Shown piece after piece: positions 26,212-29,157 of a DNA stretch of 64,000 bases. The stretch is from the human T2T-CHM13v2.0 reference genome, Homo sapiens, in assembly GCF_009914755.1 (NCBI RefSeq), contig NC_060931.1. One strand, written 5' to 3'. Under the pieces are notes generated by a model. It was not told the DNA's origin. It made no database searches and worked only from the letters and a program-made list of their open reading frames with translations. The position numbers and the translations under genes were made by a program. The first letter of the stretch is position 1. Each line of letters starts with the position of its first letter.

Positions 26212-27330
26212 GTGTATTAGTTTCCTAGGACCGCTGTAACAAAGTACCACAATTTGGGGGGCTTACAACAACAGAAATTTAGTTTTCATCATTCAGGAGG
26301 CCAGACTCTGAAATCATGGTGTTGGCAGGATTGGTTCCTTCTGGGGGCTCTGAGGGAGAGCCTCTTGGAATTATTTCCTACGTGGTTGGAAGTTTGGATG
26401 GATGTGTGAAAGCTGATAATTTTCTGTGCTGCTGTTTAATCAGAAATGGAAATTAGGGCCGGGCGCAGTGGTTCACACCTGTAATCCTAGCACTTTGGGA
26501 GGCCAAGGCAGGCGGATCACTTGAGGTCAGGAGTTTGAGACCAGTCTGGCCAACGTGGCAAAACCCCATCTCTACTAAAAATACAAAAATTAGCTGGGTG
26601 TGGTGGTGCATGCCTGTAATCCCAGCTACTCAGGAGGCTGGAACACGAGAATCACTTGAACCCAGGAAGCAGAGGCTGCAGTAAGCTGAGATCACGCCAT
26701 TGCACTCCAGCCTGGACGACAGAGCAAGACTCTGTCTCAAAAAAAAAAAAAAAAAAAAAAAAAAAAAAGGAGGCCGGGCGTGGTGGCTCACGCCTGCAAT
26801 CCCAGCACTATGGGAGGCCGAGGCGGGCGGATCACCTGAGGTCTGCCTCTCTCCTCACTTCTGTTGTCACCAGTGATCTTCACTGTTCTTGGGATTGTGG
26901 CTATATCACTGTCAATCTTCGGCTTGGTCTTCACATGGCCTTTTCCCCTGTGTGTCTCTGGTTCTAAACCTTCTCTTATTCTCTTTTTTCCCTCTGTTTT
27001 TGTTTTTTGGACACAAGATCTTGCTCTGTCGCCCAGGCTGGAGTGCAGTGATGCAATCATAGCTCACTGCAGCCTCAAACTCCTGAGCTCAAGGGATCCT
27101 CCCACCTTAACCTCCTGAGTAGCTGGGATTATAAGGCATGTATCACTATGCCTGGCTGACTTCTTTTATTGGTGCCCTATAAAGATTGGTACTACCTGAA
27201 TTCAGTACAACTTCATCTTTACTTAATTACATATGCAGACCCTAGTTACAAATAAAGTCACATCCACAGGTAGGGAGTGGGTAGAATTTGAGCCTATCTT
27301 TTTGGGAAGACACAATTTAACCCATTGTGA
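26212..27330 (-). mobile_element. MLT1 MaLR LTR interrupted by a templated insertion (26362-26843) and an Alu monomer (about 26996-27157)
   Basis: tgtattagtttcctagg...ctgagggaga | tgcctctctcct...cacaatttaacccat. Confidence 0.8.
26362..26843 (+). repeat. Inverted copy of 27974-28461 (unique flank, full Alu, and 5' part of a second Alu)
   Basis: About 99-bp flank segment differs at about 5 positions from the reverse complement of 28363-28461; private Alu variants shared. Confidence 0.93.
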
Positions 27331-27748
27331 CCTTGTTAACAGGGCAAACAAGGTCCAGAATACAAAGCTAAAGAGAGAAGAAAGAGAGAGTTTACTGTCT
27401 GGCCACTGGTAAAACGAAAGAAATCACCTCTGTTATGAGACAAGCTATAAAACAATAATAGGTGGAAGCAACCAGACCCCCTCCATCTTTGCACTCCCCA
27501 TGCCGGAGCCAGTTGTGACAAATTACAGGACTGTTGGGGGAATAAACCATTAATGATTGATGTTCCAAGAAAAGCTGCCTCACTAACCTTTAGAAAAATC
27601 TATTTGAATCCTTCCTTACTTCCTCTTCAGATGGTGTAGTCTACAACATTCCCCAGTGCATGGATTGGCAGGTAGAGCTCTCTTTGTGAGGAATCTGCTC
27701 TCCAAATGGGAAGCACATACATTGCGAGCAACTTTAATTTCCATTTCC

Positions 27749-28366
27749 TTTTTTTTTTTTTTTGAGATGGAGTCTCACTCTGTCATCCAGGCTAGAGTGC
27801 AGTGGCGCCATCTTGGCTCACTGCAACCTCCCCCTCCCAAGTTCAAGTGATTCTCGTGTTTCAGCCTCTAGAGTAGCTGAGATTACAGGCATTCACCACA
27901 ACGCCCAGCTAATTTTTGTATTTTTAGTAAAGATGGGGTTTCACCAGGTTGGCCAGGCTGGTCTCGAACTCCCGACCTCAGGAGATCCGCCCGCCTTGGC
28001 TTTCCATAGTGTTGGGATTACAGGCGTGAGCCACCACGCATGGCCTCCATTTCTTTTTTCTTTCTTTCTTTTTTTTTTTTTTTTTGAGACAGAGTCTTGC
28101 TCCGTCGTCCAGGATGGAGTGCAATGGCATGATCTCAGCTTATGCAGCCTCCGCCTCCTGGGTTCAAGTGATTCTTGTGTCCCAGCCTCCTGAGCAGCTG
28201 GGATTACAGGCATGTACCACCACACCCAGCTAATTTTTGTATTTTTAGTAGAGATGGGGTTTTGCCACTTTGGCCAGGCTGGTCTCAAACTCCTGACCTC
28301 AAGTGATCCGCCTGCCTTGGCCTCCCAAAGTGCTAGGATTACAGGTGTGAACCACTGCGCCCGGCC
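27749..28366 (-). mobile_element. Two tandem Alus (27749-28045, 28053-28366)
   Basis: Outer TSD taatttccatttc; second Alu inserted at the tail/TSD of the first. Confidence 0.93.
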
Positions 28367-29157
28367 CTAATTTCCATTTCTGATTAAACAGCAGCACAGC
28401 GAATTATAAGCTTTCACACATCCATCCAAACTTCCAACTATGTAGGAAATAATTCCAAGAGCACAAAGAAGGCTCTAGGAGCATACCTCTGGCCTGTGGC
28501 AGGACAGAATCCACTGTTCACCTTATTTTAGGATGCTTAATGTATCCCCCATCCCTCAGGCAGCACAGAAGTTACCTTACATGTCCCTTAGTGTGAACAA
28601 ACCAAGGCTGAGCAGAGAGTCTGAGGTGATGGCTGGCAGAACCAGGTGTGGACAAATTCAGGAAAGCAGCGCTGTCACCTTCCCCTCTGTCTCCTTAGTG
28701 CTGGGCTTCATGCTTGGCACCCAACACACACTCAGCCAAATGGCAAATGACAGGTGAGAAATACAGCGTTGACCTCTGCAGATGCATTTTGGGAGTGTCC
28801 AGTATGGCAAAGGGCATCCTAGTCCAGCCCTTAGGAGATGATCAATCATGTTTGCCCAGTGAATGAACTCATGAGCTTCCTACTCATCAGGAGCACATGA
28901 GAGACCAGGAAGGATTCTGCCCTGTGCCTGCCATCTTGGTCCTCCTGTGCTGCAGCATCTCAGGATCCTATCAAGCAAATAAGGAGTTCCTGTAGCTTCA
29001 TACAGTTGTGGCAGCATCTACTTTAGCATCACTGACTGAAAGCTGGGTAGACCATTATAGACACTATCCCTCTTCTATTAATTTAACAATTAACATTTAA
29101 AAAGCACTGGAAATCATCACAGCATGAGGTTCTTTTAAATAACAGACTAGGTCTTAC

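What the first reader, a model, noticed from the sequence alone, without database searches (positions are those of the whole stretch)
26362..28461. About 480-bp inverted copy of unique flank plus Alu plus partial Alu pasted into an MLT1 LTR
Seen: the MLT1 breaks after ctgagggagagc and resumes at tgcctctctcct. In between lies the reverse complement of 27974-28461, including about 95 bp of non-Alu flank, a whole Alu with shared private variants (gttcacacctgtaatcctag, gcagtaagctgag-type, cctggacgac) and the start of the next Alu (cactatgg) cut at gaggtc. The donor retains its TSDs (taatttccatttc), fixing the direction of copying. Inference: this makes an inverted repeat of higher identity than random Alu pairs with a 1.1-kb spacer, a candidate for polymorphic inversion, arm-to-arm gene conversion and strong dsRNA/ADAR editing if intronic.
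Basis: partly seen in the sequence, partly recalled or inferred. Interest (0 to 1): 0.7.

Follow-up and report, generated by a model that had tools for sequence, protein, structure and literature searches.

The report
Old local inverted duplication in intron
A 0.5-kb piece of an ATXN7L1 intron is present twice, back to front and 1.1 kb apart, with the extra copy splitting an old repeat; it is likely a single DNA-copying slip from millions of years ago, of a well-known type and probably without function.

Summary
Real but ordinary. Window 26362-26843 is the reverse complement of 27974-28461 (92.8%), the best of 129 nearby inverted matches in 264 kb (next 86.4%); its 93-bp non-Alu part has two matches in the genome. 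The copy splits an LTR-type repeat whose halves stay collinear and carries no retrotransposition marks, and the spacer is not inverted. It fits the 'Inverted Dup' class (under 1 kb, within 5 kb; Sudmant 2015). New here: the left junction likely extends five bases further, with 3-bp microhomology and a 10-nt skip, so about 10 bp of LTR were lost; this favours priming on DNA, not on the pre-mRNA. Arms differ at 3.3% of non-CpG sites, so the event likely predates the human-chimp split. Conversion is only hinted at (121-bp perfect run, p 0.01-0.03; rare variants shared by the two tandem Alus).

The parts
26213..26359 (+).
   Evidence: 2229 genome candidates, best 40 scored at 74-83% identity; paralog in window at 44483-44627
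26357..26361 (+). Left junction: 5 bases equal to the reverse complement of donor 28472-28476; first 3 fit both LTR and donor (microhomology), followed by a skip of donor 28462-28471
   Evidence: Alignment and 2% chance estimate; last two letters in 0 of 25 paralogs and 0 of 46 other exact-context matches
26362..26843 (+). Inserted inverted copy (left arm)
   Evidence: 92.8% to reverse complement of 27974-28461
26362..26456 (+). Copied non-Alu flank including the 5' TSD of AluA
   Evidence: 2 matches genome-wide; 5 differences in 95 sites
26457..26768 (+). Copy of AluA with a pure A-tail (26739-26768)
   Evidence: 11 substitutions in 282 sites to donor AluA; 12 shared non-CpG variants
26424..26544 (+). 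121-bp run identical between arms, possible conversion tract
   Evidence: Permutation p 0.012 by site, 0.032 by event
26769..26843 (+). Copied 5' part of AluB, cut at Alu column 72; right junction with little or no microhomology
   Evidence: Shared rare variant at column 39 and shared upstream letters; junction letters
26844..27320 (+). LTR-type repeat, piece right of the break (end approximate), itself interrupted by a half Alu
   Evidence: Collinear with left piece in paralogs; 27237-27307 matches the second window copy
26970..27170 (-). Half Alu (columns 124-273) with an 11-bp TSD-like pair at 26970-26980 and 27160-27170
27763..28045 (-). AluB, complete, likely inserted into the tail/3' TSD of AluA
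   Evidence: TSD words at 27735-27747, 28046-28053, 28368-28380
28085..28366 (-). Donor AluA
27974..28476 (-). Donor segment (right arm, with the 15 extra bases implied by the left junction)

Best explanation
The left arm is an inverted copy of the segment 1.1 kb to its right, sitting in a break in an LTR-type repeat, and it likely arose in one DNA template-switch event in a primate ancestor and is probably neutral. Inferred steps: a + strand 3' end at 26359 annealed by 3 bp to the donor + strand at 28474-28476, about 1.6 kb ahead; synthesis slipped 10 nt almost at once, copied about 490 nt backwards through flank, AluA and the start of AluB, then rejoined the original template about 10 bp past the departure point. 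That is switch order 1-4-3-2. A stalled or broken fork (FoSTeS/MMBIR type) is my preferred setting; synthesis-dependent repair of a double-strand break gives the same product. The arms have since drifted, perhaps with a short conversion or two.
For: Shown: inverted identity and rank; unique flank copied with the Alu; 12 non-CpG variants shared by the two AluA copies; LTR collinear across the insert; complete AluB and 3' TSD only on the right; no TSD, no terminal A-tail, no TTAAAA or TTTTAA in 26101-28700; junction skip. Literature: 54% of 229 resolved inversion calls were duplications, nearly all under 1 kb within 5 kb, not typically tied to retrotransposition (PMC4617611); 1-4-3-2 and 3-2-1-4 are the majority short-range switch types (PMC7954356); MMBIR junctions carry 2-5 bp microhomology and start with low processivity (PMC2621351).
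Against: No outgroup or second haplotype could be examined, so the empty site, the date and fixation are inferred. The 10-nt skip may be a later deletion and its 5-base match has a 2% chance level (1.5-5.6% by window size). The right junction shows no clear microhomology. The AluB part is more diverged (8 of 75 sites) than AluA (11 of 282) and lopsided (7 donor, 1 copy), which one clock does not predict, though non-CpG tests give p 0.12-0.16 and the window test p 0.46. The pure 30-nt A-tail looks young for the inferred age.
Confidence: 0.8

Rival explanations
1. RNA-templated patch: a break in the LTR was repaired by reverse transcription of nascent ATXN7L1 pre-mRNA, whose donor part is transcribed just before the break site.
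For: Both sites lie in one intron of a minus-strand gene (hub annotation); priming from the right end would use the sense RNA; 17 likely RNA-templated distal insertions are reported in PMC4617611.
Against: The microhomology and slip are at the left junction; priming there needs the donor + strand, which is not the pre-mRNA. No A-tail end, no TSD, no endonuclease word.
Confidence: 0.07
2. Breakpoint duplication of a staggered-break inversion, later flipped back by recombination between the arms.
For: The end product of two events would look the same; a crossover tract could explain the 121-bp run.
Against: Needs two events; LTR halves are collinear with only 8-10 bp missing and AluB is whole on the right; no inversion listed at this place in 44 samples.
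Confidence: 0.04
3. Much older duplication, made soon after AluB inserted, kept young-looking by repeated arm-to-arm conversion of flank and AluA but not of the part beyond the A-tail.
For: AluB part shows 1 shared and 5 private non-CpG changes against 12 and 8 in AluA; 121-bp perfect run; mean non-allelic tract about 250 bp (10.1101/135152).
Against: Contrast not significant (p 0.12-0.16); the AluB copy is close to the Alu majority, not decayed; conversion slows as copies diverge.
Confidence: 0.07
4. Two independent Alu insertions, or a retrotransposition with transduced flank.
For: Most of the arm is Alu sequence.
Against: 95 bp of unique upstream flank and a cut second Alu are copied; no TSD or terminal A-tail; identity far above other pairs.
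Confidence: 0.02

Closest known systems
'Inverted Dup' class of 1000 Genomes phase 3 (PMC4617611)
   Same: Duplicated stretch under 1 kb, inverted, inserted within 5 kb of the other copy, no retrotransposition marks.
   Different: Those were segregating variants; this one has 5.3% arm divergence and is likely old and fixed.
Four-point short-range template switch, type 1-4-3-2 / 3-2-1-4 (PMC7954356)
   Same: Same order of switch points, leaving one inverted repeat and a few lost bases.
   Different: That survey looks tens to hundreds of bases around the event; here the template is 1.1-1.6 kb away and about 490 nt long.
FoSTeS/MMBIR (PMC2621351)
   Same: Short microhomology, an extra slip at the junction, two inverted switches restoring direction.
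   Different: Described mostly for kb-Mb disease rearrangements near low-copy repeats; only one junction shows microhomology here.
Inverted-repeat-mediated polymorphic inversions (PMC3961182, PMC10150506)
   Same: Inverted arms flank a spacer.
   Different: Arms here are 0.5 kb at 93%, below the 1 kb and 97% that PMC3961182 calls highly identical; no inversion listed here.
Intronic inverted Alu pairs edited by ADAR (PMC4066801)
   Same: Opposite Alus about 1 kb apart in one intron, predicted to pair.
   Different: The duplex includes unique flank and is longer and more perfect than usual; that paper finds identity a weak factor.

Membership tests
Inverted Dup (PMC4617611) | Duplicated stretch under 1 kb, in inverted orientation | tested here: met
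   482-487 bp, reverse complement
Inverted Dup (PMC4617611) | Inserted within 5 kb of the other copy | tested here: met
   Spacer 1130 bp
Inverted Dup (PMC4617611) | Not a retrotransposition product | tested here: met
   No TSD, no terminal A-tail, no endonuclease word
Inverted Dup (PMC4617611) | Empty allele seen in another genome | not testable with these tools
   No other human or primate genome held; the paper's site table is in a zip too large to read
Four-point template switch (PMC7954356) | Switch order 1-4-3-2 or mirror, middle fragment reverse-complement | tested here: met
   Break 26359/26844, template 28476 to 27974
Four-point template switch (PMC7954356) | Template within tens to hundreds of bases | tested here: not met
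   1130-1643 bp away
Four-point template switch (PMC7954356) | Direction resolved with ape alignment | not testable with these tools
   Direction rests on internal anatomy only
FoSTeS/MMBIR | 2-5 bp microhomology at junctions | tested here: inconclusive
   3 bp on the left if the skip reading holds; 0-1 on the right; empty site unknown
TPRT retrotransposition or transduction | TSD around the insert, 3' A-tail, endonuclease site (features recalled) | tested here: not met
   LTR bases lost rather than duplicated; insert ends inside an Alu
IR-mediated polymorphic inversion | Highly identical arms (1 kb or more, 97% or more) | tested here: not met
   0.5 kb, 92.8%; threshold from PMC3961182 methods
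IR-mediated polymorphic inversion | Both orientations segregate | tested here: inconclusive
   Not listed in a 44-sample table that holds calls of 852-1140 bp; rare alleles not excluded
Staggered-break inversion | Spacer inverted relative to flanks | tested here: not met
   LTR collinear, AluB complete on the right
ADAR-edited inverted Alu pair | Same intron of a transcribed gene and predicted duplex | tested here: met
   Hub annotation; 461 predicted arm-to-arm pairs
ADAR-edited inverted Alu pair | A-to-I editing observed | not testable with these tools
   No RNA-seq or editing database

The most novel reading that the evidence does not exclude
The locus is a three-Alu exchange system with a datable start: a leading-strand end jumped 1.6 kb ahead onto the lagging template, and since then the two arms and the neighbouring AluB have traded short patches (the 121-bp perfect run; rare variants at Alu columns 186-190 and 260), keeping an unusually perfect intronic duplex with unique sequence in which editing and conversion could be mapped unambiguously across apes.
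Probability: 0.25. Interest if true: 0.4.

Novelty: new member of a known kind. Interest (0 to 1): 0.22.

Why it matters
As a class it is known. The example is clean: the broken repeat marks the insertion site and the TSDs mark the donor, so mechanism and direction can be read from one genome. It suggests a cheap genome-wide screen for old, fixed inverted duplications (broken repeat plus nearby inverted donor) to measure how far polymerases jump and how often short diverged arms still convert. No function or disease link is indicated.

Tried and rejected
Rfam scan of 24000-31000: 0 matches. Flank as multi-copy repeat: rejected. AluB-part copied from a different Alu: 7 of 29 window Alus have fewer mismatches to it than AluB (8), so distance alone does not pick AluB, but the rare variant at column 39 (0 of 26 reference Alus) and the shared upstream letters do. 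Hypermutation cluster at the donor's inner end: not supported, AluB is about 15% from the majority throughout and the window test gave p 0.46. AluB as a tandem duplicate of AluA: not favoured, they differ at several bimodal columns (65, 103, 104, 220, 244) and share nothing rare in the left half. A small Alu subfamily behind the shared variants: not favoured, 79 genome matches against about 57 per million Alus expected from independent site frequencies. Print: 0 papers hold ATXN7L1 + inversion + inverted repeat; 2 hold ATXN7L1 + intron + structural variant, both kinase-fusion surveys by listing; these two searches cover the open library only. A primate divergence table was sought and not found, so calibration is recalled. 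A paper on template-site distances was not held. Earlier scan findings were not available.

Full report
Observation. The two arms are real: 26362-26843 aligns to the reverse complement of 27974-28461 at 92.8% over 489 columns. This is the top identity among 590 non-self matches of 200 bp or more in the window (mean 77.8%) and among 129 inverted matches with a spacer up to 5 kb in the window plus 20 flanking 10-kb loci (next 86.4%). The 93-bp non-Alu part has 2 matches in the genome, the two arms, so this is a copy and not two similar Alus.

Direction and insertion site. Aligning each half separately to 29 paralogs, 3 were dropped for a weak left match and 10 more for a weak right match; 11 of the remaining 16 have 8 bp between the two ends. 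The repeat is therefore broken, collinear and slightly shortened. On the right, AluB is complete and the TSD word occurs at 27735-27747 and 28368-28380, with a shorter copy between the Alus at 28046-28053; this fits AluA first, AluB inserted into its tail, both before the copy. The copy has only the 5' TSD and a cut AluB. No TSD surrounds the insert, it does not end in an A-tail and no TTAAAA or TTTTAA lies in 26101-28700. Since the LTR continues on the left and AluB on the right, the spacer is in ancestral orientation in this assembly.

Junctions. The five bases before the apparent break (26357-26361) equal the reverse complement of donor 28472-28476, followed by a skip of 28462-28471. Random window stretches of 15-50 nt reach such a match in 1.5-5.6% of trials. 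The last two of these letters occur in 0 of 25 usable paralogs, and of 47 genome matches to the upstream context only this locus has them. I read this as 3-bp microhomology, a slip soon after priming, and about 10 bp of LTR lost; a later deletion in the copy is the alternative. The right junction shows 0-1 bp of possible microhomology. If synthesis began at the left, its template was the donor + strand, which is DNA or antisense, not the minus-strand ATXN7L1 pre-mRNA. This step is inference.

Class and mechanism. In PMC4617611 (section 9 read, plus passages) 54% of 229 resolved inversion sites were inverted duplications, nearly all under 1 kb and within 5 kb, attributed to a replication-type process; its site table could not be read and the supplementary PDF has no ATXN7L1 hit. 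In the four-point notation of PMC7954356 (passages) the order is 1-4-3-2 or its mirror, the commonest types, though on a larger scale than that survey. PMC2621351 (passages) gives 2-5 bp microhomology and low initial processivity for MMBIR. Fork switch and synthesis-dependent break repair cannot be told apart here.

Age. Outside the A-tail the arms differ at 24 of 452 sites, 14 of 418 non-CpG (3.3%, 95% interval 1.8-5.6%). With assumed rates of 0.5-1.5 per billion per year this gives 11-34 million years (extremes 6-56). Within AluA, 12 non-CpG variants are shared and 3 and 5 are private, placing the event in about the last quarter of that Alu's life; with a recalled AluS age of 30-45 million years that is about 8-11 million, more if rates slowed. 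So it likely predates the human-chimp split and is fixed; this was not tested in other genomes.

Conversion. The longest identical run is 121 bp (p 0.012 by site, 0.032 by event; one of two post hoc tests, the other gave p 0.46 and 0.87). The AluB part is more diverged and lopsided, not significantly at non-CpG sites (p 0.12-0.16). Unexpectedly, AluA and AluB share uncommon variants at columns 187, 190 and 260, and the copy shares 186 too. The joint signature has 79 genome matches, 3 of them these Alus. Against 116 reference Alus, copy-AluB share 3 variants of frequency 5% or less, reached by 20 of 6670 pairs; donor-AluB share 2, reached by 169 of 6670; 0 of 12 adjacent reference pairs reach 2. 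Three of the sites lie within 5 nt and the signature was chosen after the fact, so this is a modest sign of an old short conversion patch. 10.1101/135152 (passages) gives a mean tract of 250 bp and slowing with divergence.

Inversion: in Table S1 of PMC10150506 (30 of 61 'chr7' places seen) consecutive rows jump from 98.69 to 144.95 Mb; the table has 44 sample columns and includes calls of 852-1140 bp. It uses CHM13 v1.1, which I recall matches v2.0 on chr7. PMC3961182 (passages) treats arms of 1 kb and 97% as highly identical; these are below both. dsRNA: folding the minus strand predicts 461 arm-to-arm pairs with a 121-bp stack, and the AluA pair is the strongest of 53 inverted Alu pairs within 5 kb (-586.5 against -515.6 kcal/mol). 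But PMC4066801 (passages) finds editing set mainly by distance, identity a weak factor and very high identity slightly worse; its equation gives 0.8-1.1% at 1024-1346 bp (mean 1.34%), or about 2.4% at 250 bp, roughly the distance to the half Alu in the spacer. PMC5398296 (passages) counts millions of inverted duplicates of all sizes in the human genome.

Verdict. A real, well-preserved, probably neutral local inverted duplication: a new member of a known kind. The junction slip and the Alu-Alu sharing are small additions that ape alignments could test at once. Interest 0.22.

Noticed in passing
window 27763-28366: The two tandem donor Alus share uncommon variants at Alu columns 187, 190 and 260; 3 of 79 genome matches to this signature are in this locus.
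   Followed up: yes
window 26970-27170: A half Alu with an 11-bp TSD-like pair interrupts the same LTR a second time.
   Followed up: partly
window 26739-26768: The copy's A-tail is a pure 30-nt run whereas the donor tail is interrupted; odd for an old copy.
   Followed up: no
window 44198-44627: Second, unbroken copy of the same LTR-type repeat on the minus strand, used as a comparison.
   Followed up: yes
window 35683-36515: 833-bp (TCCA)n array with higher-order internal repeats; a likely length-variable site.
   Followed up: no
window 40959-41044: 42-bp tandem duplication, 93% matches.
   Followed up: no
window 4882-5490: Three nested or abutting Alu pieces: a partial Alu, a full Alu and a right half.
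   Followed up: no
window 29878-29994: GT/TA/AC microsatellite forming an imperfect palindrome.
   Followed up: no
L006, about G000:C12:4065295-4065360: A paralog of the LTR-type repeat has an internal tandem duplication of 58 bp across the same position at which the window copy is broken.
   Followed up: no
L005 and L012 (G000:C3:160396029 and 160399795): Two copies of the LTR-type repeat 3.8 kb apart in the same orientation.
   Followed up: no
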